Positions 14,826-27,182 are shown, counted from the first letter of the stretch. The stretch: 64,000 bases of DNA from Hyphomicrobiales bacterium (GCA_041397845.1 JAWKVW010000017.1:3503-67502); one strand, 5' to 3'. The notes: generated from the sequence alone by a model not told the origin. Translations and numbers: made by a program.

Positions 14826-16106
14826 TCAGCCGCCAGCGGCCGGAAACACCTCGACGCCGGAAACCTTCGGCGTCTCGGTGACGGCGTGCGTCTTCGGCCC
14901 TTCGAGCGGCAGGTCGAGGACCTCCCAGATCTTCAGCAGCGAATCGCGCAGGTTCTCGATCATCGCGTCGTCATGATAGGGCGACGGCGTGATGCGCAGG
15001 CGCTCCGTGCCGCGCGGCACGGTCGGGTAGTTGATCGGCTGGATGTAGATGTCGTGATACTCGAGCAGCAGGTCGCTGGCCTTCTTGCAGCGGTCCGGAT
15101 CGCCGACCAGCACCGGCACGATATGCGTCTCCGACGGCATCACCGGCAGGCCGGCGGCCGACAGGATCTCCTTGGTGCGGGCCGCCTGACGCTGATGCAT
15201 CTCGCGCTCGACCTGGCTGTCCTTGAGGTGCCGGATCGAGGCGGTCGCGGCGGCGCAAAGCCCCGGCGGCAGCGCCGTCGTGAAGATGAAGCCCGGCGCA
15301 TAGGAGCGAACCGCGTCGACGACGGCCGTCGTCGAGGTGATGTAGCCGCCAAGCGTGCCGAACGCCTTGGCAAGCGTGCCCTCGATGACGTCGATGCGCT
15401 CCATCAGGCCTTCGCGGTCACAAATGCCGCCGCCGCGCGGCCCGTACATGCCGACCGCGTGCACCTCGTCGATGTAGGTCATCGCGTTGTACTTGTCGGC
15501 AAGATCGGCGATCCGCGCGATCGGGCCGACATCGCCGTCCATCGAATAGACCGATTCGAAGACGATGAGCTTCGCCCGCTCCTTGCCCGCCTTTTTCAGC
15601 AGCTCTTCGAGATGCTCGGTGTCATTGTGCCGGAACACCTGCTTGTGCACGCCCGAATGGCGCACGCCCTCGATCATCGAGGCGTGGTTCAGCGCGTCCG
15701 ACAGGATGAGGCAGTCCGGCAGCAGCTTGGCAATCGTCGAGATCGCCGCCTCGTTCGAGACGAAGCCGGACGTGAAGACGAGGCCGGCTTCCTTGTTGTG
15801 CAGATCGGCAAGCTCGCGCTCGAGCATGACCAGCGGATGGTTGGTGCCCGAGATGTTGCGGGTGCCGCCGGCGCCGGCGCCCATGCGCTCGACGGTCTCC
15901 ATCATCGCCCCGACAACCTTGGGGTTCTGGCCCATTCCGAGGTAATCATTCGAACACCAGATCGTGATCTCGCGTTCGACACCTTCCTTGCGGAAGAGCG
16001 CCCGAGGGAAGCGCCCTGTCATTCTCTCGAGGTCGGCAAATACCCGATAGCGCTTTTCCTGCCTCAGCGCAGAAATGGCGTCCTCGAAGATTGATTGATA
16101 CCTCAT
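14826..16106 (-). CDS. hemA: 5-aminolevulinate synthase
   Basis: 426 aa of the alpha-oxoamine synthase family. Supporting strings are [35 protein letters not shown] and the PLP-Lys region GTLAKAFG. Confidence 0.92.
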
Positions 16107-16207
16107 CCCGCGATCACCTCCGGTGCTTTTGTCGCAAGAGCGTGCACACTATCGGCCTCCCTTGGCCGTGTCCAACGCCACATTGCCGCGCGTCCCACCC
16201 CCCGGCC

Positions 16208-16221
16208 TTGAGCTTCGTCAA
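16208..16221. promoter_or_regulatory. FNR/FixK-type box upstream of hemA
   Basis: TTGAGCTTCGTCAA is a perfect TTGA-N6-TCAA. It lies about 100 nt upstream of the hemA ATG at 16106. Confidence 0.7.
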
Positions 16222-16315
16222 GGTCCGGGACCGGCAGACTGACCCCCGGTCGGTCACCCGTCAAGTTTTCATGAGAAAAAGTTGCGATATGCCCGAACCG
16301 CCGCCCGCCGGCCTT

Positions 16316-17410
16316 TCAGGCGACGTCGGCGAGCGTTGCCCGGAGCTGTTCGATGTCGACGAGCGAGGATGCATAGGCGGGCTTGCCGATCGGGTCGAGG
16401 TTCATCAGACAGCGGTAATCCTGCCCGAGATAGCGCGCATACATGTAATAATGCGGCGAGCCGAGCGTCGGATTGAAAAGCTCGACGAGCGTTCCCGGCG
16501 CATGCCGGCGCCAGATGATGTTCGTCAGTCCCGCGCCATGCGCCCCGATGATCAGCCGGCTGGCGCTGAACAGGGCGATCTGCGCCTCGAGCGCCAGTTC
16601 CTGCGGGTCTGCCGTCTCGATGCCGTGCCGGGCAAGCAATGCATCGACCTCGGCCTGGTTGCGGAACGGCCGCCGGTTCGGTGCGTTCGCCCCGCGCTGG
16701 ATGAAGACGGCGCGCTCGCCTTCCGGCTTGTCGGCAATGCCGAACCGGTCGAGCGTCGCCTCGAGCGCGGCCTCGTCCGGATCGTGCGGCTTGATGGTGA
16801 AGACCGTGCCGGCCCGGACAACCTCCCGCGGCCCCTGCACGACGACCTCGTGGCTGCCGAAGACGCCGAGCCGCACCGCATCGCGGAAATACGACTGGGC
16901 CCCGAGCCGCGCCGAGACGACGACCGGCAGCGCCTGGTCGAGCCCGAGCCTGTCGGCGAGATGGAGCTTGGCGATGACGTTGTTGATGAAGTGGAAGTAG
17001 TTCGTATCGAACTTGTGGTGCAGCGAGATCAGCGCCGGGAAGCGTCGTCCGGAACCGAAGCGGTGATTGAGGAATTGCGGCGAGCGCTCCCGACCCCGGT
17101 CGAGCGGATAGTCGGTCGAACCCCAGACGACCCGGCCGCCGGCAAAGACGTGGCCGGACCATGGGTCGATGCCGATATCGCCATCGAAGCGGCGCACATA
17201 GGCCTCGTCCGTGCCGTCCAGCCAGCGGATGTATTCGCGGCGAAGGCATTCCGGCACGTCACCGGCAAAACGCGGATCGGACCAGGGCTGGCGGCTGGAG
17301 ATGAGGAGCGCCGACACCTCCTCGAGCGGCGCCGAGGGATGCAGCCGCTCGAGCGTGCGCACCAGGGACTGGCGGGTATGCACCAACTGGCGGCGAAACG
17401 TCTTTTCCAT
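16316..17410 (-). CDS. Glycosyltransferase family 61 / DUF563-like protein
   Basis: 364 aa. The C-terminal pattern NRRPFRNQAEVDALL...QIALFSASRLIIGAHGAGLTNIIW...LVELFNP is typical of DUF563/GT61 as recalled. No search was run. Confidence 0.55.
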   Translation of the reverse strand: MEKTFRRQLVHTRQSLVRTLERLHPSAPLEEVSALLISSRQPWSDPRFAGDVPECLRREYIRWLDGTDEAYVRRFDGDIGIDPWSGHVFAGGRVVWGSTDYPLDRGRERSPQFLNHRFGSGRRFPALISLHHKFDTNYFHFINNVIAKLHLADRLGLDQALPVVVSARLGAQSYFRDAVRLGVFGSHEVVVQGPREVVRAGTVFTIKPHDPDEAALEATLDRFGIADKPEGERAVFIQRGANAPNRRPFRNQAEVDALLARHGIETADPQELALEAQIALFSASRLIIGAHGAGLTNIIWRRHAPGTLVELFNPTLGSPHYYMYARYLGQDYRCLMNLDPIGKPAYASSLVDIEQLRATLADVA

Positions 17411-17529
17411 CCGGCAAGGCTCTCCCGGCTGCGGTCCGGCCTCTCGTCAGTAGCGAAATCGCCTGTGGCCGACAAGCCGAAACGAGGTCCCTTGAACGCC
17501 CGTCTTGCCGGCGACCGGCTGCTTCGCCT

Positions 17530-19455
17530 ATGTTGCGCCGCGTTGCACGCCGCTGGTCGCAGAAGGCCCGGCGTTTGCTGTCGCGGCGCGCCGCGGCAAA
17601 CCATGCCGAGGCAAGGCCGCCCGTGACCGACGACAAGAACGCGACGAACCTGCCGCCGGCTGTCGCTGCCGGCGATCCCTATCTGCTCAGCTACATGTCG
17701 GCAAAAGGCTCCGCGGCCGGGTCCGGCCGGCGCTGGGGCTTGCTGCGCCGCTTTGTCTCTGACTTCATCGTCCAGTACTGGCCGCGCTATCTGCTCGCCG
17801 CCGCCACAATGGCGCTCTACTCGGCAAGCGTCGTCGCGCTGCCCTGGATGCTGGAAAACCTCGTCAACAAGGTCCTTGTCGACCGCAATGCCGAGGCGAT
17901 GCCGGCCCTCATCACGGCCATCATCATCATCTTCTCGGTTCGCGCCGTGACGAGCTTTGCCCAGCGCTACCTGCTGGCGATGGCGAGCCTCGACCTGACG
18001 GTCGACCTGCAGCGCCGCACCGGCCGCCACATCCTGACCCTCGATCTCGCCTTCTTCCAGAAGAACCCGGTTGGCCAGATCATCGCCCGCATCGCCGACG
18101 ACGTCGCCGTGCTCGACCGTGTCGCCTCGAACATGGTGATCACGCTCGTGCGCGACATCGTCACCATGGTCGGCCTCGTCATTTACGTCGCCTGGACCAA
18201 TCCGGTCTGGTTCGGCCTTGCCCTCACTGCCGGGCCGATGATCGCTGTGCCGGCGATCATTGCCAATCGCAAGCTGCGCCGCCTCGCTCATCGCCAGCGC
18301 GAGAACTGGGGCGAGACGCTGACCTCCTATGAGGAGTGCTTCCACGGCATTCGCGGCATCAAGGCGGAAAACAACGAGTCGCTCGAGATCAAGCGCCTCG
18401 ACCACGTCATCGACCAGCGCTGGAACGTCGGCATGAAGGCGGCGCGCACCGGCGCGCTGATGACGCCGGTCGTCGACGTCGTCACCTGCGTCGCCCTCGT
18501 CGGCGTCATCCTCGTTGGTGGCCGCGAGGTCATCGCCGGCGAAGTGCAGGCCGGCACGCTGATGGCCTTCGTCGCCGCCCTGATGCTGCTCTACGAGCCG
18601 CTGAAGCGCATCGTCCAGCTCAACGCCCTCATCCAGATGTGCGTCGCCTCCGTGCAGCGCATCTACGAGGTGCTGGAAATGCGCCCGCGCATCATCGACC
18701 GGCCCGGCGCCGAACCCATCGCCGAGCCGGGCGGCGAGATCGTCTTCGACGACATCTCCTTCTCCTATGACGACGGCCACAAGGTGCTCGACGGCTTTTC
18801 CGCCGTCGTGCCGAAGGGGACGACCGTCGCCTTCGTCGGTTCGTCCGGCTCCGGCAAGACGACGCTGTTCAATCTCCTTGCCCGACTCTACGAAGTCGAG
18901 GGCGGCAGCATCCGCGTCGGCGGCGAGGACATACGCGACATCGCCATTTCGAGCCTGCGTTCCTCGCTTGCGCTCGTCACCCAGGACGTCCTGCTGTTCG
19001 ACGCCTCGATCCGCGACAACATCGCTTACGGTTGCCCGGACGCCGGCGAAGCCGCCATCGTCGAGGCCGCACGTCTTGCCGCCGTCGACGATTTCGTCCG
19101 CAAGCTTCCCGAAGGTTATGATTTCCGCGTCGGCCCGCGCGGCACCCGCCTGTCCGGCGGCCAGCGCCAGCGTGTCGCCATCGCCCGCGCCATCCTGCGC
19201 GACGCGCCGCTGCTGCTGCTCGACGAGGCGACCTCGAGCCTCGACGTCGCAACCGAGGCCCGCGTCCACCAGAACGTCATGAACCTGCGCCGCGGCCGCA
19301 CGACGGCGATCATCGCCCACCGTCTGTCGACCGTCATGGGCGCCGACCGCATCTACTTCCTGGAGGCCGGCCGCATTGTCGAGAGCGGTACACACGAGGA
19401 ACTGATGTCCCGTGCCGGGCGCTATCGCAGCTACGTGATGGAGCAGGTGGAATAG
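17530..19455 (+). CDS. ABC exporter, fused permease-ATPase (MsbA/lipid exporter-like)
   Basis: Six TM segments are followed by an NBD with Walker A GSSGSGKTT, signature LSGGQRQRVAIARA and Walker B LLLLDEATSSLD. The true start may be the ATG at 17695 (MSAKGS...). Confidence 0.85.
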   Translation: MLRRVARRWSQKARRLLSRRAAANHAEARPPVTDDKNATNLPPAVAAGDPYLLSYMSAKGSAAGSGRRWGLLRRFVSDFIVQYWPRYLLAAATMALYSASVVALPWMLENLVNKVLVDRNAEAMPALITAIIIIFSVRAVTSFAQRYLLAMASLDLTVDLQRRTGRHILTLDLAFFQKNPVGQIIARIADDVAVLDRVASNMVITLVRDIVTMVGLVIYVAWTNPVWFGLALTAGPMIAVPAIIANRKLRRLAHRQRENWGETLTSYEECFHGIRGIKAENNESLEIKRLDHVIDQRWNVGMKAARTGALMTPVVDVVTCVALVGVILVGGREVIAGEVQAGTLMAFVAALMLLYEPLKRIVQLNALIQMCVASVQRIYEVLEMRPRIIDRPGAEPIAEPGGEIVFDDISFSYDDGHKVLDGFSAVVPKGTTVAFVGSSGSGKTTLFNLLARLYEVEGGSIRVGGEDIRDIAISSLRSSLALVTQDVLLFDASIRDNIAYGCPDAGEAAIVEAARLAAVDDFVRKLPEGYDFRVGPRGTRLSGGQRQRVAIARAILRDAPLLLLDEATSSLDVATEARVHQNVMNLRRGRTTAIIAHRLSTVMGADRIYFLEAGRIVESGTHEELMSRAGRYRSYVMEQVE

Positions 19456-19503
19456 GCCGACGGCCGCTTCAGGCGGGAAAATGCCTTGCCGCCGGCAAGT
19501 CGG

Positions 19504-20013
19504 TCAGATCGACCGGCGCCGGATCGCGATCGCGATATCCTGAAATGCCTCGGCGATGCCTTCGCCGGTCCTGGCGCTGGTCCGCACCAGCACGTCCGGC
19601 CGGACCGCGAATTCCGGCTCCTCGAGCGGCCCGTTCTCGACAAGATCGATCTTGTTGAGGATCGCTGCCGTCGGCCGGCCGGGCTTTGCCTCGGCGAACT
19701 GGGCAACGAGCTCGGCCATCTTGGCCATCGAGTTCGGCCGGGTGACGTCGGCAACGATGAGCGCGCCCGCCGCGCCTTTCAGATAGATGGTCGAGAAGAT
19801 CGACAGGCCGAAATCGCCGTCCGTGTCCCAGAGCACGAACCGTATCGTCTCCTGTTTGCCTTCCCAGTCGTAAGTGCAGTCATGGGTGTAGATGTCGACG
19901 CCGATCGTTGCCTTGTAATCGGCATCGAACCGGTCGAAGACGAACCTGTTGGCGATCGACGTCTTGCCGACGCCGATGTCGCCTAGGATCATGATCTTCT
20001 GGGCAATGGTCAT
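19504..20013 (-). CDS. Ras-superfamily small GTPase (Rab/Ras-like, 169 aa)
   Basis: Motifs present are G1 GDIGVGKT, switch I YKATIGVD, G3 WDTDG, G4 NKID and G5 TSAR. The ATG lies 6 nt after the stop of the upstream OmpA-like ORF. Confidence 0.85.
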   Translation of the reverse strand: MTIAQKIMILGDIGVGKTSIANRFVFDRFDADYKATIGVDIYTHDCTYDWEGKQETIRFVLWDTDGDFGLSIFSTIYLKGAAGALIVADVTRPNSMAKMAELVAQFAEAKPGRPTAAILNKIDLVENGPLEEPEFAVRPDVLVRTSARTGEGIAEAFQDIAIAIRRRSI

Positions 20014-20019
20014 CTCGCG

Positions 20020-20835
20020 TCATTCCCCCTGAAAGGCGAGAGCGAAGTCGACGCGCCGGTTGGCGCTGGTCGGCCCGCTGGTATTGGCAATCCCCGGTGC
20101 CTCGGGGCGTCCGACGATGACGAGGCGCCCGGCCGCGATGCCTCGTTCGGCGAGATCGGCAACGACTTTCTCGGCGCGCCGTTGGGCGACGACCAGATTG
20201 GCTTCCTTGTTGCCGGTCTCGTCGGCATAACCGATGACCCGCAGCCGCGCGTCCGGCGCGGCGGCAAGCATCTCGGCAAGCGCCGCAAGACTGCGCTTTG
20301 CCGCCACATCGTTGCTGTAGACAATTCCATTGCCGAAGAAAATAGCAGTTGTATCGATAAAGCGACGCAATCTGTCGATTGGCAGATCAACCTGTGCCTT
20401 GACGCTGCCAAGTTCCCCTTCGAGATCGGCAATCCGCGCTTCCGCCTTGCCCTGCGCGTCAAGGGCGGCCGCCAGCGACGCCTCGGTCGCGGCAAGCTTT
20501 GCCTCGGTTGCAGCAAGCTCGGCGCTCGACGGCGCCGCGCCGACCGCAGCGCCAAGGCCGCCGATCCGGGCATCGACCGAGGCAACGGCCTCGGCAAGCC
20601 GGGCGATCGCTGCCTCGTCGGCCTTTTGCGCATCGAGCGCCGAGAACCGCTGTCCGAAGCCGACCATCACCCGTTCGAGCGATGCCATGCGCTCGGTATC
20701 GACGGCGACGAGCTCGGCCTCGACCGGGATCTTGCCGGCGATCTTCCCGGCTTCGGCGATGATGACATCCCGCGCCGCGATGTTCGGCACGAGGCCGCGC
20801 ACCCGCACGATATCGTCGCTGCGATCGTGCGTCAC
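20020..20835 (-). CDS. OmpA_C-like peptidoglycan-binding protein segment with coiled coil and a possible BON-like N-terminus
   Basis: The C-terminus reads RVIGYADETGNKEANLVVAQRRAEKVVADL...NRRVDF, an OmpA/MotB-type motif. The middle is Ala/Glu-rich coiled coil. The GTG start overlaps the upstream stop (GTGA), so this may be the C-terminal part of a larger protein. Confidence 0.75.
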   Translation of the reverse strand: MTHDRSDDIVRVRGLVPNIAARDVIIAEAGKIAGKIPVEAELVAVDTERMASLERVMVGFGQRFSALDAQKADEAAIARLAEAVASVDARIGGLGAAVGAAPSSAELAATEAKLAATEASLAAALDAQGKAEARIADLEGELGSVKAQVDLPIDRLRRFIDTTAIFFGNGIVYSNDVAAKRSLAALAEMLAAAPDARLRVIGYADETGNKEANLVVAQRRAEKVVADLAERGIAAGRLVIVGRPEAPGIANTSGPTSANRRVDFALAFQGE

Positions 20836-21719
20836 GACGGTGGATAGCCGCCAAGGACCGGGTTGGTCGCGACCTCGGCGAGCCTGGCCGAAAACAGCGA
20901 CTGCTCCCGCGCCTGCCAGACCTGGTAGCCGATGAGCCCGGCAAAGGCGAGGGCAAGGCCGCCGACGATGAAATAGGCAAGGCGCGGCTGCCGCGACGCC
21001 TCGATCTGGCTGAGACGGTCGATGAGGTCGTCATGCAGGCCGCGCAGCACGTCGCGGATCGGGTCCTGCCCGGCGGAATCGAGAAATGGCGGCAGCGTCT
21101 CGAGAAAGCCGAGGAAGGCGTCGTCGACCGCATCCTCGATCGGCGCCGAACTGGAGCCAAGGCCGATGGCTGCCACCGCAAACCGCGGCGAAGCCCTGAG
21201 GAAGGCCTTGCGGCCGCCGAGGTCGATGGAGCGGATGCCGCCACCCTTCGAGCGCAGCGCCTCCTCGGCGAAATCGAGAATGGCTGAAAGCATGCCGCCG
21301 ACGAGCGTCAGGTTCTCGCCGCTGCCGGCCTCCGTCGGCGGCCAACTGCCGATCATCGTGCCGTTGCTGTGGTCGATGAGCAGGATCTGCTGCGGACGAA
21401 AGGCGGTCGCCTCCGCCAGCACCAGCTCGCCATAGCTTCGTCCGGTCAGGAATGCCTTCAGCCGCAGCCGCCAGCGACGCGGCGACAGGGCGGATTCGAG
21501 CCGGGCATTGATGTCGGCCAGCAGGTTCTGGAACGCCTTCGCGACCGCCGTCGACACCAGCCGGCCGGTGATCGGATAGAGCGCCTCGACCATCATGTCG
21601 CGCGACTGCGCGATCTCCGAGCGGATGCCGGCGACGACGAGCGGCGCGATCGCCGCTGACAGGCCGCGATGGTCCTCGACCTCCGCCTGCCGCAGCGCGG
21701 CGACGAGGCTGTTGGCCAC
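20832..21719 (-). CDS. Membrane protein segment with a Roadblock/LC7-like alpha/beta region and a C-terminal TM helix
   Basis: The Roadblock-like pattern is QQILLIDHSNGTMIGSW...LVGGMLSAILDFAEEAL...IRSIDLGGRKAFLRASPRFAVAAIG. The TM helix is LAYFIVGGLALAFAGLIGY. The frame stays open and coding-like for 35 more codons upstream, to 21824 (SVSLLEEEQQKLERLGRDVDDFAGKF...), with no ATG. Confidence 0.6.
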   Translation of the reverse strand: MANSLVAALRQAEVEDHRGLSAAIAPLVVAGIRSEIAQSRDMMVEALYPITGRLVSTAVAKAFQNLLADINARLESALSPRRWRLRLKAFLTGRSYGELVLAEATAFRPQQILLIDHSNGTMIGSWPPTEAGSGENLTLVGGMLSAILDFAEEALRSKGGGIRSIDLGGRKAFLRASPRFAVAAIGLGSSSAPIEDAVDDAFLGFLETLPPFLDSAGQDPIRDVLRGLHDDLIDRLSQIEASRQPRLAYFIVGGLALAFAGLIGYQVWQAREQSLFSARLAEVATNPVLGGYPPS

Positions 21720-21853
21720 TGCCCGTTCGAACTTGTCGGAACTGCCGAATTTGCCGGCGAAATCGTCAACGTCGCGGCCGAGGCGTTCAAGCTTTTGCTG
21801 CTCCTCCTCGAGCAGCGAGACGCTTCAACTCATGGAAATGGCCGTTCCCCTGA

Positions 21854-22318
21854 TCAGTCTCGTGCAGCATCATCTGCCGCTGGCTTGGTCGCGAGCGCGG
21901 AGATCTGCCGCCCGACCTCCTCGATTGCCGCCCCGATCGACCGGATCGTCCGCGCCTGCTCGACTTCGGTGCGCCGGGCAAGCTCGTCGAGCCGCCGGTC
22001 GATGCCGTCGAGGCGATCGGCCAGCCGATGCTCGAGCAGCCGCAGGGCGTCGTTGAGCTCGGCGATATTGCCGTCATGCTTGCGATTGCTGTCGCCGAAC
22101 AGAAGCTCGCGCACCTGATCGAGCGGATTGCTCTCCGCCCCGTTCGGCTGACCGGGCGTTGCTGCCTGCATCGCCGCGCGCACGCCGGCAAGGCTCACCC
22201 CGTTGCCCCCCTGGCGAAGGGGAACCGGACCTTGCGCTGCTCTGCTGCTGGGGCTTGGGCTGCTGAAACTGCTCCGTGCCGTTGGCCGGCCGGCTGTTTT
22301 CTTCGGGCATGTGCACAC
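21854..22318 (-). CDS. Coiled-coil protein segment (start uncertain; possibly the N-terminal part of the same envelope protein)
   Basis: The heptad-rich sequence is NPLDQVRELLFG...LNDALRLLEHRLADRLDGIDRRLDELARRTEVEQART. The best SD plus ATG (GGGAGAG-N9-ATG at 22308, MPEENSRPANGTEQFQQPK) is in a different frame, the same frame as 20832..21824. Confidence 0.5.
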   Translation of the reverse strand: MCTCPKKTAGRPTARSSFSSPSPSSRAAQGPVPLRQGGNGVSLAGVRAAMQAATPGQPNGAESNPLDQVRELLFGDSNRKHDGNIAELNDALRLLEHRLADRLDGIDRRLDELARRTEVEQARTIRSIGAAIEEVGRQISALATKPAADDAARD

Positions 22319-22499
22319 GCTCCCGTAGGCGTAATTCTTCTGGTTACGTTTCGTTTACCATCTTTGGCAGGGGAGCGGAACAGCGGTAAAGCAGAGAATT
22401 TCGCCGATTACGCACCGGAGAACTACGCGCGTAGTCGCGCCGCCCGGCAGGCCTGGGAATGTCGGCCGATCCAGCCTGCTGCTTTCACCGCGCCGCCGT

Positions 22500-22942
22500 T
22501 CAGACGAAGCAGACCTCGGCCTCCTCTACCTCGGCGACGTTCTCGTCGATGGACTTCTTCATCGCCATGTCATGGCCGAGGATGTGTTCCACCAGCCAGT
22601 CCTTCAGGAGGTTGGTCGTTGCCCGGATGAGGCCGGGCAGGTGTGAAGGTTCCGCGATTCGAGCTTCTCGGTGATCTGGTCCAGCCGCCGGGCCAGCACG
22701 GCGTGCTCGCGCTCATGCTCGGCCCCGTCGATGAAGTTGATCGAGCGCTGGAACGCCTCCTCACGTACGAAATGATGCCGCATGTGCCGGCGCAGGGTAT
22801 CAATGATTTCAATTGCCCGCTCGCGGCAGGCCTCATGTGACTTCATGTGGATGAAGTCATTGACGATGAAGATGGCGATGCGGTGATCATCGTCGATGAC
22901 GCCATTGTCGATCGTCAGTTTCTCATCCCAGCGGATCTCCAT
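22500..22942 (-). pseudogene. Bacteriohemerythrin-like protein interrupted by one frameshift near 22645
   Basis: The N-terminal 100 aa are in ORF 22604..22942 (MEIRWDEKLTIDNGVIDDDH...EHEREH). The conserved C-terminus LPGLIRATTNLLKDWLVEHILGHDMAMKKSIDEN... continues in another frame to the stop at 22500-22502. Confidence 0.75.
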
Positions 22943-23110
22943 GGCTAACCTCTTTTCCGGCGCTTGTTTTTCGGAGTGTTTTCTCCTGTATCATTCGAAT
23001 AAAATTCAAATAAGTAATTAACGCCATGAAGAATTAGTTAATAGTTCTTAATGTCGTAATTCAATATTTTACCGCCCAGTAATTTAGTGGGCGATACAGA
23101 GTATTTATCC
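22943..23110. promoter_or_regulatory. Conspicuously AT-rich intergenic island upstream of the hemerythrin gene
   Basis: The stretch tcattcgaataaaattcaaataagtaattaacgccatgaagaattagttaatagttcttaatgtcgtaattcaatatttta stands out in an otherwise GC-rich window. It is likely promoter or nucleoid-protein binding DNA. Confidence 0.5.
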
Positions 23111-23304
23111 GGAAAGCATGACGCAACGTAAGAGGCCGCCCGGCGGGCAGGGCAGCCGGACACCCGCCAGTGGCTGATGGCATGCGTAGCGGCGTACCCT
23201 GCCGGCCTCGGTCCGATGTGACCCGGCGGCATGGGAATGTGTCAACGCGATGCCGGGGCCTTCGCCGGGGCCTCTGGCGCGGTCGGGGGATGTTCTGGCG
23301 GACG

Positions 23305-23673
23305 TTATTTGCCAGCCGTGGCGCCGAGTGGCTGCTGTTGTGAGCTGGCGCAGAAGACCTTTCCGGCATCGCTCTCGGCCGGGGTGCACCCGTCGGCGCC
23401 GACTGGCGCGGCCTCGAAGCCATCGGCCTTCAGCACGACGCGATAGTCATAGCGCGGCGCATCCTTCGGCGCGTTGCGGTCATATTTCGAGACCTCGATG
23501 TCGCTCGGCGCGCAGCGCGTCTCGATAATCCCGATACCGGCCTTTTCCAGCACCGGCTTGACCTGCTCGAGCCGGGCAGCGCACGCCTCGAGGCTCTCCG
23601 TTTCGCCGAAGCTCACATGGGTCGAGCCGTCTGTCCCGAGGGTGAGCAGCAGCATGATGATCTTCATCGACAT
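23305..23673 (-). CDS. Small hypothetical protein with a hydrophobic N-terminus (possibly exported), 4 Cys
   Basis: GGAGG lies 7 nt before the ATG at 23673. The protein begins MSMKIIMLLLTLG... No recognisable family. Confidence 0.5.
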   Translation of the reverse strand: MSMKIIMLLLTLGTDGSTHVSFGETESLEACAARLEQVKPVLEKAGIGIIETRCAPSDIEVSKYDRNAPKDAPRYDYRVVLKADGFEAAPVGADGCTPAESDAGKVFCASSQQQPLGATAGK

Positions 23674-23823
23674 CGGCGAACCTCCTTGCAGATCTGAACC
23701 GGCGCGGCTGGAACCGCGCCGAAGCAAGGTCTATGCGATGCTGCCGCGCGGCTCAACCGTCGAGACGGCGAGTGACCCGCCACGTGTCGCGGCAAAACCG
23801 CCCCGATTCCTCGAAACGCCGCC

Positions 23824-24300
23824 TCAGTCGGCCTCGCGGGTCCGGCAGCCGCCGGCCTTCATGGCGCAGTCGGCTTCCGCGCAATCGTCATGGCAGAAAA
23901 GGTCGTACACCGTCTCGATGACGGTCCGCACCCTGTCGCTCGCCAGCGAATAGAAAATGTTCTTGCCGTCGCGCCGGGTGGCGACGACCTTTTCGGCCCG
24001 CAGCCGCGCCAGATGCTGCGACAGCGCCGACTGGCGAATGCCGAGCAGGGTCTCGAGCTCGCTCACCGACCGCTCGCCCTCGGCAAGCGTGCAGAGCACC
24101 TGCAGCCGCCCCTCGTTACCGAAGAGCTTGAGGAAATTGCACGGCGCCGACGCATTGTCGGTCAGCCGGCCGAGATGCCGCGCGCCGCTGCGTCTTGCGG
24201 TCTCGGCGGTGCCCCGCCGCACCTTGGCCGCGGGCGCCGCGATTTGCCGGCGCGCCGGCGTCGCGTCCTCGGCAAGATTGGTGGTCATCAAATCCGTCAT
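23824..24300 (-). CDS. ArsR/SmtB-family metalloregulator
   Basis: The winged-HTH core is LKLFGNEGRLQVLCTLAEGERSVSELETLLGIRQSALSQHLARLRAEKVVATRRDGKNIFYSL, followed by a Cys-rich C-terminal tail. The longer ORF to 25479 is an out-of-frame read of the ATPase gene. Confidence 0.85.
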   Translation of the reverse strand: MTDLMTTNLAEDATPARRQIAAPAAKVRRGTAETARRSGARHLGRLTDNASAPCNFLKLFGNEGRLQVLCTLAEGERSVSELETLLGIRQSALSQHLARLRAEKVVATRRDGKNIFYSLASDRVRTVIETVYDLFCHDDCAEADCAMKAGGCRTREAD

Positions 24301-24358
24301 GCTGAAATCGATCCCTTGGCATGGGCGCGCCGCGGCGAGGGCCCGCGTGCGTCCCGTT

Positions 24359-24378
24359 GTTGCAGTGCACACTGCAAC
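24359..24378. promoter_or_regulatory. 20-bp palindrome upstream of the arsR-like gene (operator candidate)
   Basis: GTTGCAGTG-ca-CACTGCAAC lies 58 nt upstream of the ATG at 24300. No U tract follows it on the minus strand, so an operator is favoured over a terminator. Confidence 0.4.
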
Positions 24379-24404
24379 ATTTGAGAATGATTTGCAATAA
24401 CGAC

Positions 24405-27182
24405 TTATCGCCGCGGCAGCAGACGGCCGAGCCAGTCCCGGGCGAAGATCGACCGCCGGATCGATTTCTCGATTTCGAGGATAAGCATCAGCACGATGCC
24501 GGACGCGACGATGAGGGCGCCGTCGACAAACCCGATCGGCCGGGTGTTGAACAGAAACTGCATCGCCGGCAGGTAGGTGAAGGCGAACTGCAGGGCGACG
24601 ATGCCGCCGACGCCGACGAGCACCGCCGGTGTGCCGAGCATGCCGCGCCAGGTGATCGAGGCGCCGTGCAGGTAGCGCACCGAGAAGAGGTAGAAGATCT
24701 CCATGACGACGACCGTGTTGACGACCATCGTCCGCCCGGTCTCGGCGGAAAGGCCGCGTGCCTCGGCATAGGCGAACATCGCGAACGCGCCGGCCGCGAC
24801 GAGCACCGACACGAGACCGACGCGCCAGAGCAGGAAGCCGGAAAGGATCGCCTCGTCGACCCGGCGTGGCGGCCGGTTCATGATGTCCGGCTCGGCCGGC
24901 TCGAAGGCGAGCACCAGCCCGAGCCCGACCGCCGTCACCATGTTGACCCAGAGGATCTGCGCCGGCGTGATCGGCAGCGTCAGGCCGAACAGGATGCCGG
25001 CGATGATGATCAGCGTCTCGCCGCCATTGGTCGGCAGCGTCCAGCCGATCACCTTGGTGAGGTTGTCGTAGACGATCCGTCCCTCGCGCACGGCCGCGAC
25101 GATCGAGGCGAAATTGTCGTCGACGAGCACCATGTCGGCCGCTTCCTTGGCCGCCTCGGTGCCATTGCCGCCCATGGCAACGCCGACATCGGCACGCTTC
25201 AGGGCAGGGGCGTCGTTGACCCCGTCGCCGGTCATGGCAACGACATTGCCGGCCGCCTGCAGCGCCTTGACGAGGCGCAGCTTGTGTTCCGGACTGGTGC
25301 GGGCAAAGACGCTGGTCGCGGTCGCGGCCGCCTCGAGCGCCGCGCCGTCGAGGGCCTCGATGCCGTCGCCCGGCAGGGGCGGGCGCCCGCCGTCGATGCC
25401 GAGTTCGGCTGCGATGGCTCGCGCCGTCGCCGTGTGGTCGCCGGTGATCATCTTGACCGAGATGCCGGCGCTGCGGCACTCGGCGACCGCCGCGATCGCC
25501 TCCGGGCGCGGCGGGTCGATCAGCCCGACGAGACCGGCAAGCACCAGATCCTCGCCGATGTCGGCAAGGGAAAGCTCGCGGCGATGGCAGCTCGCCGGCC
25601 GGGTCGCAAGCGCCAGCACGCGCTGGCCGCGCCCCGCCAGCCTCTCGACCGAGGCTTCCCAGTAGTCCCGGTCGATCGGCCGCCGGCCGTCCGCCGTCGC
25701 CTCGAAGGCGGCAAGCTCGATCAGCCGCTCCGGTGCCCCCTTGAGGCAGATGAGGGCGCTGTCGTCATGGCCGTGATGCAGCGTCGCCATGAAGCGATAG
25801 GCCGCATCGAACGGGATTTCGTCGATCCGCGGCAGCGCCTTTGCCTCGTCGTCGCCGTCAAGGCCGGCCTTGAGGCCGAGCGCGGCGAGCGCCCCCTCCA
25901 TCGGATCGCCGTCGACGAACCAGCGCCCGTCGGTCTCGTGCAGGGCCGCGTCGTTGCAGATGAGCGCCGCCCGCGCCAGCGTGACGAGTACGCGATCGCT
26001 TTCCGGCGAGATTTCCCGGCCCGCCAGCGAAAAGCCGCCCTTCGGCGCATAGCCCTCGCCGCCGACGTCATACTGGCGCTCGGCGGTGACGACCGAGGTC
26101 ACCGTCATCTCGTTGCGCGTCAGCGTCCGGTCTTGTCCGAGCAGATCGTCGACACCGAGCCGAGCGTCTCGACCGCCGGCAGCGCCGGATGATGGCGTTG
26201 CGCGCCGCCATCCGCTGCACGCCGATTGCCAGCGTCACGGTAAGGACAGCCGGCAAACCTTCCGGAATTGCCGCCACCGCCATGCCGACGATCGCCATGA
26301 AGGCCTCGTCGAGCGCATAGCCGCGCACCCAGACCGCAAAGGCGAAGGTGGCGACCGACAGGCCGAGGATGATGAAGGTGAGCTGCCGGGCAAAGACGTT
26401 CATTTGCCGGATAAGCGGTGTTTCCAGCCGCTCCACCTGGCCGAGCAGCCGGCTGATCCGGCCAAGCTCGGTTGCCACGCCGGTGGCGACGACGACGCCG
26501 CTTCCCTGGCCGGCGGTGACGAGCGTGCCCGAGAATGCCATCGACCGGCGATCGCCGAGCGCGGCGTCGGCGGCGGCCGGCGCGACGGTCTTTTCGGCCG
26601 GAACGGATTCGCCGGTCGGGATCGTTCATCGACCCTCAGATTTCGCGCCCGGACGAGCCGCGCATCGGCCGTCACCCGAGTCGCCGGCTTCCATGAGCAG
26701 GATGTCGCCGGGCACGACCTCGGCGGCCGGTATCGACATCCGGTGGCCGCCGCGCGGCACCGAGGAGCACGCGGGCTGATCATGCTGCGGATCGATTCGA
26801 GCGCCCGTTCGGCCTTTCCTTCCTGGATGAAGCCGATCACCGCATTGATGACGACAACCCCGAGAATGACGCCGGTGTCAACGCCGTGACCGAGCAGGAA
26901 AGTCACGACCGCCGAGACGAGCAGCACATGGATGAGCAGATTGTTGAACTGCTCGAGAAACCGGCGCCAGGCCGGTGTCGGCGGGCTGGTGGGCAGGGCG
27001 TTCGGCCCGTGCGCCTCGAGCCGCCGCGCCGCTTCGCTGGTCGAAAGACCGCTCGTCGTGCTGGCGTGCGCCGACAGGACCTCTTCGAAATCTGATGCGT
27101 GCCAGTCGGCGGCCTGCGCAATGCCCGGACGCGGTGTCGCTCCGGCCGCGTTCTTCGCGGTGGTTCTTCCGGGTGTCGACAT
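24405..27182 (-). pseudogene. Cation-transporting P-type ATPase (type II, Ca2+/Mg2+-like) with at least 5 frame changes
   Basis: The N-terminus is MSTPGR...LSTSEAARRLEAHGPNALP (from 27182). VPRGGHRMSIPAAEVVPGDILLMEAGD, RVTADARLVRARNLRVDE, TGESVPAEK...PEGLPAVLTVTLAIGVQRMAARNAIIRR, LPAVETLGSVSTICSDKTG and TRNEMTVTSVV... each sit in a different frame from their neighbours. The C-terminal 567 aa (24405..26108, TGDGVNDAPALKRADVGVAMG) are intact. Confidence 0.85.

What the first reader, a model, noticed from the sequence alone, without database searches (positions are those of the whole stretch)
19504..22318. Ras-like small GTPase coupled to a fragmented coiled-coil / Roadblock-like / OmpA envelope protein: candidate uncharacterised envelope switch
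Seen: a 169-aa ORF has a complete Ras/Rab motif set (GDIGVGKT, YKATIGVD, WDTDG, NKID, SAR). Its ATG lies 6 nt after the stop of an OmpA_C-like ORF (RVIGYADETGN...NRRVDF). That ORF overlaps (GTGA) a 295-aa ORF with a C-terminal TM helix and a central segment (QQILLIDHSNGTMIGSW...LVGGMLSAILDFAEEAL...IRSIDLGGRKAFLRASPRFAVAAIG) whose pattern resembles Roadblock/LC7. A heptad-rich coiled coil lies upstream. Established: prokaryotic Ras-like GTPases such as MglA and Streptomyces CvnD act with Roadblock/LC7 partners (MglB, CvnB). Inference: this would be a GTPase switch attached to a membrane-spanning, peptidoglycan-binding scaffold, an architecture that matches neither MglAB nor the conservon. The G3 motif is DTDGD, with Asp where Ras has the catalytic Gln, so hydrolysis may be slow or partner-dependent. 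The upstream ORF pieces occupy frames 2,1,2,0, and the 295-aa ORF stays open for 35 more codons with no start codon. They may therefore be one protein of about 750 aa.
Basis: partly seen in the sequence, partly recalled or inferred. Interest (0 to 1): 0.75.

Follow-up and report, generated by a model that had tools for sequence, protein, structure and literature searches.

The report
Rup-type Ras GTPase envelope cassette
This is a three-gene bacterial cassette (small coiled-coil protein, membrane protein that binds the cell wall, Ras-like GTPase) that was already catalogued in 2014 as a "Group 1 Rup" system; its broken look here comes from single-base indels, and the one possibly new point is that the membrane protein's unknown domain is predicted to have the Roadblock/longin fold typical of GTPase regulators.

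Summary
19504-20013(-) encodes a Ras/Rab-like GTPase (Pfam Ras 7.5e-26). 20020-20835(-) carries an OmpA-like domain.

The "fragmented" upstream protein is one gene of about 617 aa (20020-21873) broken by two 1-nt indels. All relatives have a single ORF of 540-640 aa. The heptad-rich ORF upstream (21854-22171/22318) is a separate conserved small gene, so there is no 750-aa protein.

The order small coiled-coil protein > unknown domain-TM-OmpA protein > GTPase holds in all 80 related alphaproteobacterial loci that reach far enough.

The cassette matches the "Group 1 Rup" system of Wuichet & Søgaard-Andersen 2014 (DUFY > DUFX:OmpA > Rup). Their table lists Mesorhizobium loti mlr3243, and they noted the missing G3 glutamine. 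Here WDTDGDF is invariant in 120 orthologues. So the architecture is not new, though I found no experimental study.

AlphaFold models give the "DUFX" domain an αββαβββα fold. Its best PDB matches are all Roadblock/longin GTPase regulators (Mon1-Ccz1, BLOC-3, TRAPP, LAMTOR, MglB). No sequence method detects this.

The histidine kinase/response regulator found near most relatives is absent from this window.

Verdict: a new member of a known, uncharacterised kind; moderate interest.

The parts
19504..20013 (-). Rup (Group 1) Ras/Rab-like small GTPase, 169 aa, intact. G1 is GDIGVGKT, with Ile at the Ras G12 position. G2 is T36. G3 is WDTDGDF, with Asp at the Ras Q61 position. G4 is NKID and G5 is SAR.
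   Evidence: Pfam Ras 7.5e-26 and Roc 2.5e-22. The best solved-structure matches are Rabs (Rab31 1.2e-18). The motifs are invariant in 120 orthologues. NCBI calls it 'Rab family GTPase'.
20020..21873 (-). One gene for the DUFX-TM-coiled coil-OmpA protein, about 617 aa after correcting two 1-nt indels. In the window it reads as three frame pieces: 21816-21873, 20841-21815 and 20020-20838.
   Evidence: tblastn of the relative's 490/638-aa protein covers all three pieces in three frames. The repaired ORF has no other stop and is 55% identical to the 638-aa L007 protein. All 50+ homologues are single proteins of 520-580 aa with OmpA at the C-terminus.
21816..21816 (-). Frameshift 1: one extra base relative to the closest relative (window CGTCTCGCTG, L006 CGTCT-GCTG). 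The position is approximate, within a few nt.
   Evidence: DNA alignment; best repair position.
20839..20839 (-). Frameshift 2: one missing base. It creates the apparent GTGA 'overlap' of two ORFs at 20832-20835. The position is approximate.
   Evidence: DNA alignment; best repair position.
21444..21821 (-). Cytoplasmic N-terminal helical region of the large protein.
   Evidence: AlphaFold model, helices 2-127; the same in the P0003 model.
21555..21599 (-). DMMVEALYPITGRLV, the most conserved motif of the family. It lies in a low-confidence loop/helix start of the model.
   Evidence: Invariant in 55 homologues and nearly invariant in 139 representatives at 50% clustering.
21096..21434 (-). Roadblock/longin-like alpha/beta domain with αββαβββα topology. 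This is the 'DUFX' core.
   Evidence: AF2 pLDDT is mostly 85-96 in this stretch. The homologue model has the same topology. The top Foldseek PDB hits are all Roadblock/longin proteins: MON1A-CCZ1 1.2e-4, BLOC-3, TRAPP, LC7, LAMTOR, MglB 1e-3. No sequence-level hit.
20916..20981 (-). Single transmembrane helix (LAYFIVGGLALAFAGLIGYQVW).
   Evidence: Highest Kyte-Doolittle window, 1.95; lies within the long helix 281-320 of the model.
20698..20814 (-). Small periplasmic ββαβ domain just after the membrane (DIVRVRGLVPN...VEAELVAVD).
   Evidence: Homologue model E340-346, E351-358, H361-374, E379-386. No BON hit by Pfam.
20389..20697 (-). Periplasmic Ala/Glu-rich coiled-coil spacer.
   Evidence: Helices 392-466 in the homologue model. 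Weak coiled-coil Pfam hits such as DUF7310 and ATG16.
20032..20358 (-). OmpA/Pal-like peptidoglycan-binding domain.
   Evidence: PF00691 5.4e-11. Many NCBIfam OmpA/Pal/MotB-type hits. The homologue model matches Pal/OmpA C-domains with target TM-scores around 0.8.
21854..22171 (-). Small cytoplasmic coiled-coil protein ('DUFY'), 105 aa from ATG 22171; the ORF stays open to 22318. Its stop is overlapped by the ATG of the large gene by 17-20 nt.
   Evidence: Conserved directly upstream in at least 67 related loci. 58% identical to the relative's 134-aa protein. The overlap is seen.

Best explanation
This is an alphaproteobacterial copy of the 'Group 1 Rup' small-GTPase system. It is a co-translated three-gene cassette: DUFY (a small cytoplasmic coiled-coil protein), DUFX-TM-OmpA (a bitopic inner-membrane protein), and Rup (a Rab/Ras-like GTPase).

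Shown here:
- The three genes are invariably adjacent, in the same order, across more than 80 alphaproteobacterial loci whose flanking genes differ.
- The large protein has a cytoplasmic helical region, then an αββαβββα domain, one TM helix, and a periplasmic small domain, coiled coil and OmpA-like peptidoglycan-binding domain.
- The GTPase keeps every nucleotide-binding motif. It invariably has Asp at the Ras Q61 position and nearly always has Ile at the Ras G12 position.

Inferred:
- The large protein is tethered to the cell wall and presents a probably dimeric Roadblock/longin-like platform on the cytoplasmic face.
- That platform binds the GTPase and sets its nucleotide state, as GAP, GEF or holder. 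This would be analogous to MglB with MglA, or to Mon1-Ccz1, TRAPP and Ragulator with Rab and Rag GTPases.
- Because the GTPase lacks its own catalytic Gln, hydrolysis should depend on a partner.
- In most relatives the output is probably a dedicated histidine kinase with a conserved N-terminal domain plus a NarL-type response regulator. This locus has none within the window, so its output partner is unknown.

The split into several ORFs in this window is due to two single-base indels. These are sequence or assembly errors, or very recent mutations. They are not part of how the system works.
For: Identity with the published system:
- Wuichet & Søgaard-Andersen 2014 (PMC4316618) describe Group 1 Rup neighbourhoods: a coiled-coil protein, plus a protein with an unknown domain, an inner-membrane helix and OmpA, plus Rup. 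They note the absent G3 Gln.
- Mesorhizobium loci, including an M. loti strain, are among my homologous loci, with the same gene order and a 169-aa GTPase.

Linkage:
- The GTPase lies directly downstream in 80 of 86 loci. The other 6 are cut by contig ends.
- The small protein lies upstream in at least 67 loci.
- Flanking genes differ between loci.

Single gene:
- Homologues are single proteins of 520-640 aa.
- The repaired gene is 617 aa with no further stops.

Fold:
- Two independent AF2 models give the same αββαβββα domain at high pLDDT.
- All top Foldseek PDB hits are Roadblock/longin GTPase regulators.
- The OmpA/Pal fold of the C-terminus is confirmed.

GTPase chemistry:
- WDTDGDF, T36, NKxD and SA[RK] are invariant in 120 orthologues.

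Output module:
- A histidine kinase and/or NarL-type regulator lies within 6 kb in 41 of 53 loci with full flanks. The kinase is directly downstream on the same strand in 11 loci.

Translational coupling:
- The small gene and the large gene overlap by 17-20 nt. A 6-nt gap with an SD-like run precedes the GTPase.
Against: - No experiment exists for any Rup1 system in the literature I could search. Every functional step is inference.
- The Roadblock/longin assignment rests on predicted structures and on Foldseek E-values of only 1e-4 to 1e-3. Query-normalised TM-scores are low because the query is much larger than the domain.
- Pfam Robl_LC7 and a profile search of PDB sequences find nothing.
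- No complex prediction could be run, so contact between the GTPase and this domain is untested.
- The fourth component that the 2014 paper calls 'highly conserved' (HK or GGDEF/EAL) is absent from the whole 64-kb window.
- In this assembly the large gene, as written, is disrupted. If the indels are real the system may be dead here.
Confidence: 0.75

Rival explanations
1. The cassette is a decaying pseudogene cluster in this organism. On this reading the two indels in the large gene are real mutations, as are those in the neighbouring hemerythrin and P-type ATPase genes. The GTPase would then be an orphan remnant.
For: There are six single-base frame changes in three genes between 20.8 and 27.1 kb. 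Three syntenic genes at 15-20 kb and the GTPase are intact. The indels are not in homopolymer runs, which is not the classic long-read error signature.
Against: After repair there is not a single in-frame stop in 617 codons. Conservation follows the family pattern, with 65% identity in the cytoplasmic part and all invariant motifs kept. A P-type ATPase with three frameshifts but 73-78% identity in all but its N-terminal piece (61%) looks more like error than long decay. The source is a metagenome-assembled genome.
Confidence: 0.25
2. The Roadblock/longin resemblance is only a generic α/β sandwich. On this reading the DUFX domain is a sensor or oligomerisation module that does not act on the GTPase directly. 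The GTPase would instead be regulated by the small coiled-coil protein, by the invariant YPITGR motif region, or by the kinase N-terminal domain. The last option is what the 2014 paper speculated, through an in-trans Gln.
For: There is no sequence-level signal for Robl_LC7 or for any PDB Roadblock protein. Foldseek E-values are modest. The most conserved element of the protein is not in the α/β domain but in the helical region, DMMVEALYPITGRLV. The 2014 paper points to an invariant Gln in the kinase/GGDEF N-terminal region.
Against: Every one of the top 50 PDB hits is a Roadblock/longin protein. Most are subunits of small-GTPase regulatory complexes or coat adaptors, and none is a PAS, GAF or other sandwich. 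The topology αββαβββ(α) is the Roadblock order. The domain sits next to a Ras-like GTPase gene in every locus.
Confidence: 0.25
3. It is a previously undescribed envelope switch architecture, distinct from all known prokaryotic small-GTPase systems.
For: It matches neither MglAB nor the conservon. No Pfam, NCBIfam or PADLOC family covers the cytoplasmic part.
Against: The same gene trio, the same domain order and the missing G3 Gln are described and tabulated for about 30 genomes in PMC4316618, including an alphaproteobacterium of a genus present in my locus set.
Confidence: 0.03
4. It is an anti-phage defence or mobile-element cargo module, for example Zorya-like, since ZorB is a MotB/OmpA-type protein.
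For: A homologue's OmpA domain gives weak PADLOC hits to ZorB (4.6e-9). Flanking genes vary between genomes.
Against: The hits cover only the generic OmpA domain. There is no ZorA, no nuclease and no other defence gene. The GTPase and the small protein have no meaningful PADLOC hit: the small protein has none, and the GTPase has a single E = 0.022 hit to PDC-S73. The cassette is found in 119 alphaproteobacterial species genomes, and often sits beside a two-component pair.
Confidence: 0.03

Closest known systems
Group 1 Rup (Rup1) system of Wuichet & Søgaard-Andersen 2014 (DUFY, DUFX:OmpA, Rup, plus HK or GGDEF/EAL)
   Same: The gene trio and order are the same, and the GTPase size is the same (about 160-180 aa). 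The G1-G5 motifs are Ras/Rab-like and the G3 Gln is missing. The partner has an unknown domain, an inner-membrane helix and OmpA. The coiled-coil partner is present. An alphaproteobacterial example (M. loti mlr3243) is listed.
   Different: This locus has no adjacent kinase or GGDEF/EAL 'fourth gene' anywhere in the window. The large gene carries two indels. The paper treats DUFX as an unknown domain and states that Rup GTPases are not coupled to MglB homologues. Predicted structure here gives DUFX a Roadblock/longin-like fold.
MglA/MglB polarity switch (Myxococcus, Thermus)
   Same: A small Ras-superfamily GTPase is encoded next to a protein with a Roadblock-type fold. MglB structures are among the fold matches (6h5b_B, 6hjm; E about 1e-3; target TM-score 0.51-0.54).
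   Different: The GTPase is Rab/Ras-like, not MglA-like: its G3 is DTDGD, not the TVPGQ described for MglA, and I did not examine the MglA-type G2 Arg. The Roadblock-like domain is embedded in a 617-aa membrane protein that binds peptidoglycan. It is not a free 130-160-aa MglB, and PF03259 does not recognise it.
Actinobacterial conservon (CvnA-D / Mfp)
   Same: It combines a small GTPase, a Roadblock-fold component and, in most relatives, a histidine kinase. The 2014 paper itself draws this analogy.
   Different: There is no CvnC/DUF742 protein. The GTPase belongs to the Rup family rather than MglA Group 2. The Roadblock-like domain is fused to a TM helix and an OmpA domain. The kinase is absent from this locus.
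Eukaryotic longin/Roadblock GTPase platforms (Mon1-Ccz1, BLOC-3, CPLANE, TRAPP core, Ragulator)
   Same: These give the best structural matches to the DUFX domain (1.2e-4 to 1e-3). They regulate Rab or Rag GTPases at membranes. Rup1 clusters with Rab/Ras/Rho in recent phylogenies.
   Different: The similarity is of fold only, with 10-20% identity. Nothing shows a GEF function here. The eukaryotic complexes are soluble multi-subunit assemblies, not proteins anchored to peptidoglycan.
MotB/Pal/TssL-type inner-membrane proteins with C-terminal OmpA-like domain
   Same: N-in bitopic topology with a periplasmic OmpA-like peptidoglycan-binding domain.
   Different: The cytoplasmic part is about 300 aa and carries the helical and Roadblock-like domains. 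There is no MotA/ExbB/TolQ-type partner gene in the cassette.

Membership tests
Rup Group 1 system (Wuichet & Søgaard-Andersen 2014) | Single-domain GTPase with eukaryote-like Ras/Rab G1-G5 motifs (Rup family, not MglA family) | tested here: met
   Pfam Ras 7.5e-26 and Roc 2.5e-22. The best PDB sequence matches are Rab31, Ypt31 and Rab6. The GxxxxGK[ST], T, DxxG, NKxD and SA[RK] motifs are invariant. No formal phylogeny with reference Rup1 sequences was made.
Rup Group 1 system (Wuichet & Søgaard-Andersen 2014) | G3 motif lacks the catalytic glutamine | tested here: met
   The window reads WDTDGDF. The Ras Q61 position is Asp in 118 and Glu in 2 of 120 orthologues. The feature is stated.
Rup Group 1 system (Wuichet & Søgaard-Andersen 2014) | Adjacent gene for a cytoplasmic coiled-coil protein (DUFY) | tested here: met
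   21854-22171/22318(-). It is conserved directly upstream in at least 67 loci and has no TM segment (sequence).
Rup Group 1 system (Wuichet & Søgaard-Andersen 2014) | [quoted passage not shown] | tested here: met
   20020-21873(-) after repair. The cytoplasmic domain has no Pfam hit, the TM helix is at 20916-20981, and PF00691 scores 5.4e-11. Direct sequence comparison with the paper's DUFX proteins was not possible. A Mesorhizobium orthologue is listed in their Table S2.
Rup Group 1 system (Wuichet & Søgaard-Andersen 2014) | Fourth conserved neighbour: a signal output protein (histidine kinase or GGDEF/EAL) with a conserved N-terminal region | tested here: not met
   tblastn with the kinase and regulator families of related loci finds nothing in the 64-kb window, and there is no GGDEF motif. 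An HK and/or NarL-type regulator is present in 41 of 53 related loci with full flanks. Table S2 of the paper also lists only the three-gene core for most entries.
Rup Group 1 system (Wuichet & Søgaard-Andersen 2014) | No coupling to a sequence-recognisable MglB / Robl_LC7 protein | tested here: met
   No PF03259 hit in any cassette protein, even at E up to 10.
MglA/MglB | MglA-type GTPase (TVPGQ-like G3, intrinsic Arg finger beside the G2 Thr) with a separate MglB Roadblock protein | tested here: not met
   G3 is DTDGD, not the TVPGQ described for MglA; the Arg-finger position itself was not examined here. No stand-alone Roadblock gene is present. Only fold-level similarity is seen, within the large protein.
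Roadblock/LC7-longin fold superfamily | αββαβββ sandwich topology with structural similarity to solved Roadblock/longin domains | tested here: met
   Two AF2 models share the topology at pLDDT mostly 85-96. All top 50 Foldseek PDB hits are Roadblock/longin proteins, with E from 1.2e-4 and target TM-scores up to 0.62. This rests on predicted structures only.
Roadblock/LC7-longin fold superfamily | Detectable sequence or profile homology to Robl_LC7 (PF03259) or to solved Roadblock proteins | tested here: not met
   hmmscan of 21 domain sequences against Pfam at E up to 10 gives no Robl_LC7 hit. A profile of the domain against PDB sequences gives only two chance-level hits. HHpred-type profile-profile search against Pfam or PDB was not available.
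Actinobacterial conservon (CvnABCD) | Four-gene set of histidine kinase, Roadblock protein, DUF742 protein and MglA-Group-2 GTPase | tested here: not met
   No DUF742 protein and no kinase at this locus. The GTPase is Ras/Rab-like.
OmpA-like peptidoglycan-binding domain (PF00691) | OmpA_C fold with the conserved D...R and NRRV peptidoglycan-binding residues | tested here: met
   PF00691 5.4e-11. GYADETGN...RRA...NRRVDF is present, and the corresponding D, R and RR columns are at least 90% conserved. The homologue model matches Pal/OmpA with target TM-scores around 0.8. Binding itself cannot be tested here.
BON domain (PF04972) | Pfam BON match in the membrane-proximal periplasmic segment | tested here: not met
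   No BON hit at E up to 1. The model shows only a small ββαβ unit.

The most novel reading that the evidence does not exclude
The 'DUFX' domain that accompanies every Group 1 Rup GTPase is a cryptic Roadblock/longin-type GTPase-regulatory platform. Rup1 is the bacterial clade that groups with eukaryotic Rab/Ras/Rho. On this reading, these GTPases are hard-wired to a membrane-anchored Roadblock/longin partner, as eukaryotic Rabs and Rags are to Mon1-Ccz1, TRAPP and Ragulator. This would overturn the 2014 conclusion that Rup GTPases, unlike MglA, are not coupled to MglB-like proteins. It would also push the GTPase-plus-Roadblock/longin pairing for the Rab/Ras-like branch back into bacteria, here linked to the cell wall.
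Probability: 0.45. Interest if true: 0.65.

Novelty: new member of a known kind. Interest (0 to 1): 0.38.

Why it matters
No one has worked out what Rup1 GTPases do. They are the bacterial small GTPases most similar to eukaryotic Rab/Ras/Rho, and recent eukaryogenesis phylogenies use them as a reference clade.

This window adds no new architecture. The follow-up does show three things:

- The cassette is widespread. It occurs in 119 alphaproteobacterial species genomes, and its cytoplasmic domain is found in about 3,400 clusters at 50% identity.
- The cassette is strictly linked.
- Its unknown partner domain is predicted to have the fold used throughout biology to regulate small GTPases.

These results turn a vague "conserved neighbourhood" into a testable model. 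A Roadblock-like platform tethered to peptidoglycan would control a GTPase that lacks its catalytic Gln, and in most species that GTPase would feed a dedicated two-component system. Culturable hosts such as Mesorhizobium, Methylocystis, Methylobacterium and Rhodoblastus are available for testing.

The finding also carries a practical warning. The apparent gene fragmentation in this assembly comes from indels and should not be read as biology.

Tried and rejected
- PADLOC scan of the GTPase, the small protein and two full-length homologues gave only generic MotB/ZorB-type OmpA similarity, so I dropped the defence-system idea.
- Pfam and NCBIfam on the cytoplasmic part gave no family.
- A profile of the α/β domain against PDB sequences gave only chance hits.
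- An alignment with the window's OmpA ORF as first sequence mis-aligned its N-terminus (A3). I abandoned it and modelled the full-length homologue P0003 instead.
- The listing of cluster members on ten distant representatives returned no organism names. The spread of the DUFX domain across phyla is therefore taken from the 2014 paper, not shown here.
- tblastn and motif scans found no kinase, response regulator or GGDEF partner in the window.
- Six literature searches for experimental work on Rup/Rup1, or for a Roadblock assignment of DUFX, found nothing. One candidate preprint on peptidoglycan-damage signalling was unrelated.
- Promoter and terminator scans were uninformative: 0 promoter-like sites, and terminator-like sites not above expectation.
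- I considered programmed frameshifting and rejected it. The two indels have opposite sign, are absent from all relatives, and come with similar indels in unrelated neighbouring genes.

Full report
**What is in the sequence**

On the minus strand, ORF listing and three-frame translation show four elements:

- a 169-aa ORF at 19504-20013;
- a 271-aa ORF at 20020-20835;
- a 295-aa ORF at 20832-21719, which stays open without a start codon up to 21824;
- an ORF of up to 154 aa at 21854-22318.

The 169-aa product is a Ras-family GTPase. It hits Pfam Ras at 7.5e-26 and Roc at 2.5e-22, and NCBIfam small_GTP at 6.6e-14. Its closest solved relatives are Rab31, Ypt31/32 and Rab6, at about 1e-18. The 271-aa ORF ends in an OmpA-like domain (PF00691, 5.4e-11). 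The other two ORFs match no Pfam or NCBIfam family.

**The "fragments" are one gene with two indels, plus one separate small gene**

Homologues of the 330-aa open frame are single proteins of about 520-580 aa that carry OmpA at their C-terminus.

The closest relative is 65% identical. It is a Kaistiaceae/Pseudomonadota MAG, seen as loci L006 and L007. It encodes an uninterrupted 638-aa protein that starts MLHETDPKDGHFDELKRLLF. The window encodes MMLHETDQGNGHFHELKRL in one frame, continues LLEEEQQKLERL in a second, and continues the periplasmic part in a third.

DNA alignment shows one extra base near 21816 and one missing base near 20839. Correcting the two gives a 617-aa ORF with no other stop.

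The upstream coiled-coil ORF is not part of this protein. It is a separate gene of about 105-135 aa, found directly upstream in at least 67 related loci. Its stop codon (21854-21856) is overlapped by the ATG of the large gene (21873 or 21870).

**Are the indels real?**

Measured against the same relative, the neighbouring P-type ATPase (24414-27104) is split into four frame pieces and the hemerythrin-like gene (22548-22942) into two. That makes six single-base frame changes in about 7 kb. Three syntenic genes at 15-20 kb and the GTPase are intact.

The repaired large gene keeps every family-invariant motif and has no in-frame stop. I read the indels as assembly or sequence error, or at most very recent mutation. 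Only the reads can decide. Either way, the fragmentation is not a property of the system.

**Conserved linkage**

I collected 86 loci: 6 through exact-protein look-ups and 80 through a scan of one genome per species. The scan found 119 matching species genomes, all Alphaproteobacteria where the record title names a class. They include Methylocystis, Methylocella, Rhodoblastus, Mesorhizobium, Bradyrhizobium, Rhizobium, Hyphomicrobium, Methylobacteriaceae, Xanthobacteraceae, Geminicoccaceae and Kiloniellales.

A GTPase orthologue lies immediately downstream on the same strand in 80 of the 86 loci. The other six end at a contig edge. Flanking genes differ from genome to genome. The refutation criterion "no conserved linkage" is not met.

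**It is an already described system**

Wuichet & Søgaard-Andersen (Genome Biol Evol 2014, PMC4316618) split prokaryotic small Ras-like GTPases into the MglA and Rup families. For "Group 1 Rup" they describe the following:

- eukaryote-like G1-G5 motifs with the G3 glutamine missing;
- a neighbourhood made of a cytoplasmic coiled-coil protein, plus a protein with a conserved unknown domain, an inner-membrane helix and a C-terminal OmpA domain;
- a signalling output protein, either a kinase or GGDEF/EAL, whose N-terminal region has an invariant Gln that they speculate acts in trans.

Their Table S2 writes the core as DUFY>DUFX:OmpA>Rup. [quoted passage not shown] My locus set contains a dozen or more Mesorhizobium loci, including an M. 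loti strain, with this order and a 169-aa GTPase.

It is still not a new architecture.

In the literature I could search, Rup1 is later used only as a reference clade that clusters with Rab/Ras/Rho. I found no functional study.

**The GTPase**

In 120 orthologues the following are invariant or nearly so:

| Motif | Sequence | Note |
|---|---|---|
| P-loop (G1) | G[DE]IGVGK[ST] | Ile at the Ras G12 position |
| G2 | Thr | |
| G3 | WDTDGDF | Ras Q61 position is D in 118 and E in 2 |
| G4 | NKxD | |
| G5 | SA[RK] | |

Guanine-nucleotide binding should therefore be intact. Both hallmarks of Ras-type catalysis are replaced: the small residue at position 12 and Gln at position 61. From what is known of Ras, Rap and Rab chemistry, I infer slow intrinsic hydrolysis and dependence on a partner.

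**The partner protein**

An AlphaFold model of the window's 330-aa piece, built with a 55-sequence alignment, has mean pLDDT 83.6. It shows N-terminal helices, a compact domain H-E-E-H-E-E-E-H at residues 131-243 (pLDDT mostly 85-96), and a long helix containing the TM segment.

A second model, of the full-length homologue P0003, has mean pLDDT 80. It reproduces that domain. After the membrane it adds a small ββαβ unit, a coiled coil and an OmpA/Pal fold. The OmpA/Pal fold matches solved Pal and OmpA C-domains with target TM-scores around 0.8.

- MON1A-CCZ1 (1.2e-4)
- BLOC-3
- TRAPP core subunits
- dynein LC7
- Ragulator LAMTOR (target TM-score 0.62)
- Fuzzy-Inturned
- AP sigma subunits
- MglB (about 1e-3, target TM-score 0.51-0.54)

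Sequence methods see none of this. There is no Robl_LC7 hit at E up to 10 in 21 domain sequences, and a domain profile against PDB sequences gives nothing.

The 2014 paper does not make this assignment. It states that Rup GTPases are not coupled to MglB homologues.

The strongest sequence conservation lies elsewhere, in the motif D(M/L)MVEALYPITGRLV (window 21555-21599). It is invariant in 55 homologues and nearly so in 139 representatives clustered at 50% identity. In the models it sits in a low-confidence loop, which would fit an interaction site.

The cytoplasmic region defines a large family: 3,443 representative clusters at E up to 1e-3, and 733 at E up to 1e-30.

**The output module**

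Clustering the neighbours of the 86 loci shows a histidine kinase family and a NarL-type response regulator. The kinase has HisKA or HisKA_3 plus HATPase_c, often PAS, and a conserved N-terminal region with no Pfam match.

Among loci with at least 4.5 kb on both sides, 41 of 53 have the kinase and/or the regulator within 6 kb. In 11 loci the kinase follows the GTPase directly on the same strand.

The window and its nearest relatives (L007, L008) belong to the minority without it. No homologue of either family and no GGDEF motif occurs anywhere in the 64 kb.

**How it most likely works**

- Shown: three translationally coupled genes; the domain order and topology of the large protein; strict linkage; and the unusual catalytic positions of the GTPase.
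- Inferred: the large protein spans the inner membrane. Its OmpA domain is fixed to peptidoglycan through a coiled-coil spacer. Its cytoplasmic Roadblock/longin-like domain is probably dimeric, like other members of that fold. Together with the YPITGR region and the small coiled-coil protein, it binds the GTPase and controls its nucleotide state. The loaded GTPase then acts on an effector, which in most species is a dedicated kinase/regulator pair.
- Weak hint: the small protein shares a short N-terminal motif with the large protein (hhalign probability 55%).
- Untested: whether the platform is a GAP, a GEF or a holder, and what signal it reads. Cell-wall state is the obvious guess.

**Verdict**

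The finding is real and its Ras, OmpA and Roadblock-like elements hold up. It is a new member of the Group 1 Rup system, which was described in 2014 and has no experimental study that I could find, not a new architecture. Its fragmentation is an indel artefact. The only potentially new element is the predicted Roadblock/longin fold of DUFX, and that needs homology-level and experimental confirmation.

Noticed in passing
window 24414-27104 (-): A P-type cation ATPase, 922 aa in the syntenic relative, is split into four frame pieces. That is three single-base frame changes, with 61-95% identity kept across the pieces.
   Followed up: partly
window 22548-22942 (-): A hemerythrin-like gene lies directly upstream of the cassette on the same strand. 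It also carries one frame change near 22640. It is syntenic in the two closest relatives (L006, L007) but not in other loci. It could be a lineage-specific partner or simply a neighbour.
   Followed up: partly
window 14973-27104: All six detected indels lie between 20.8 and 27.1 kb. The syntenic genes at 15-20 kb are intact: an ABC transporter at 17530-19455, a 427-aa gene at 16322-17434, and a 485-aa gene at 14973-16415. The indels are not in homopolymer runs. This uneven distribution is unexplained; local assembly quality and real decay are both possible.
   Followed up: partly
window 22172-22318 (-), two frames: The N-terminal tail of the small coiled-coil gene may contain a further frame change. 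MPEENSRPANGTEQ... in another frame weakly resembles the relative's MADDNVRSMNGGGQ... (E 8e-4 in a tiny search space). The true start of the small gene is therefore uncertain, either 22171 or further upstream.
   Followed up: partly
window 21854-22171 and 21760-21873; related loci: The small protein's conserved N-terminal motif (TIDQVRELLFG..R...L) resembles the N-terminus of the large protein (LK.LLF..E..RL..L). hhalign gives probability 55% and pairwise E 1.2e-4. This may be a shared helix used for assembly.
   Followed up: partly
L022, L030, L045, L050, L062-L064, L073, L080, L081, L084 (directly downstream of the GTPase); many others within 6 kb: A histidine kinase family has a conserved N-terminal region of about 130 aa with no Pfam match (G.A....D..V....G.L..WLP..G..C....LL.GM...). 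It joins both HisKA-type and HisKA_3-type kinases and usually comes with a NarL-type regulator. It is probably the 'fourth component' of the published system. I could not pinpoint the invariant Gln that the paper mentions.
   Followed up: partly
window 23857-24288 (-) and 23326-23673 (-): An ArsR/HTH_5-type regulator and a conserved 117-aa protein lie between the ATPase and the hemerythrin gene. They are syntenic with L006 and L007.
   Followed up: no
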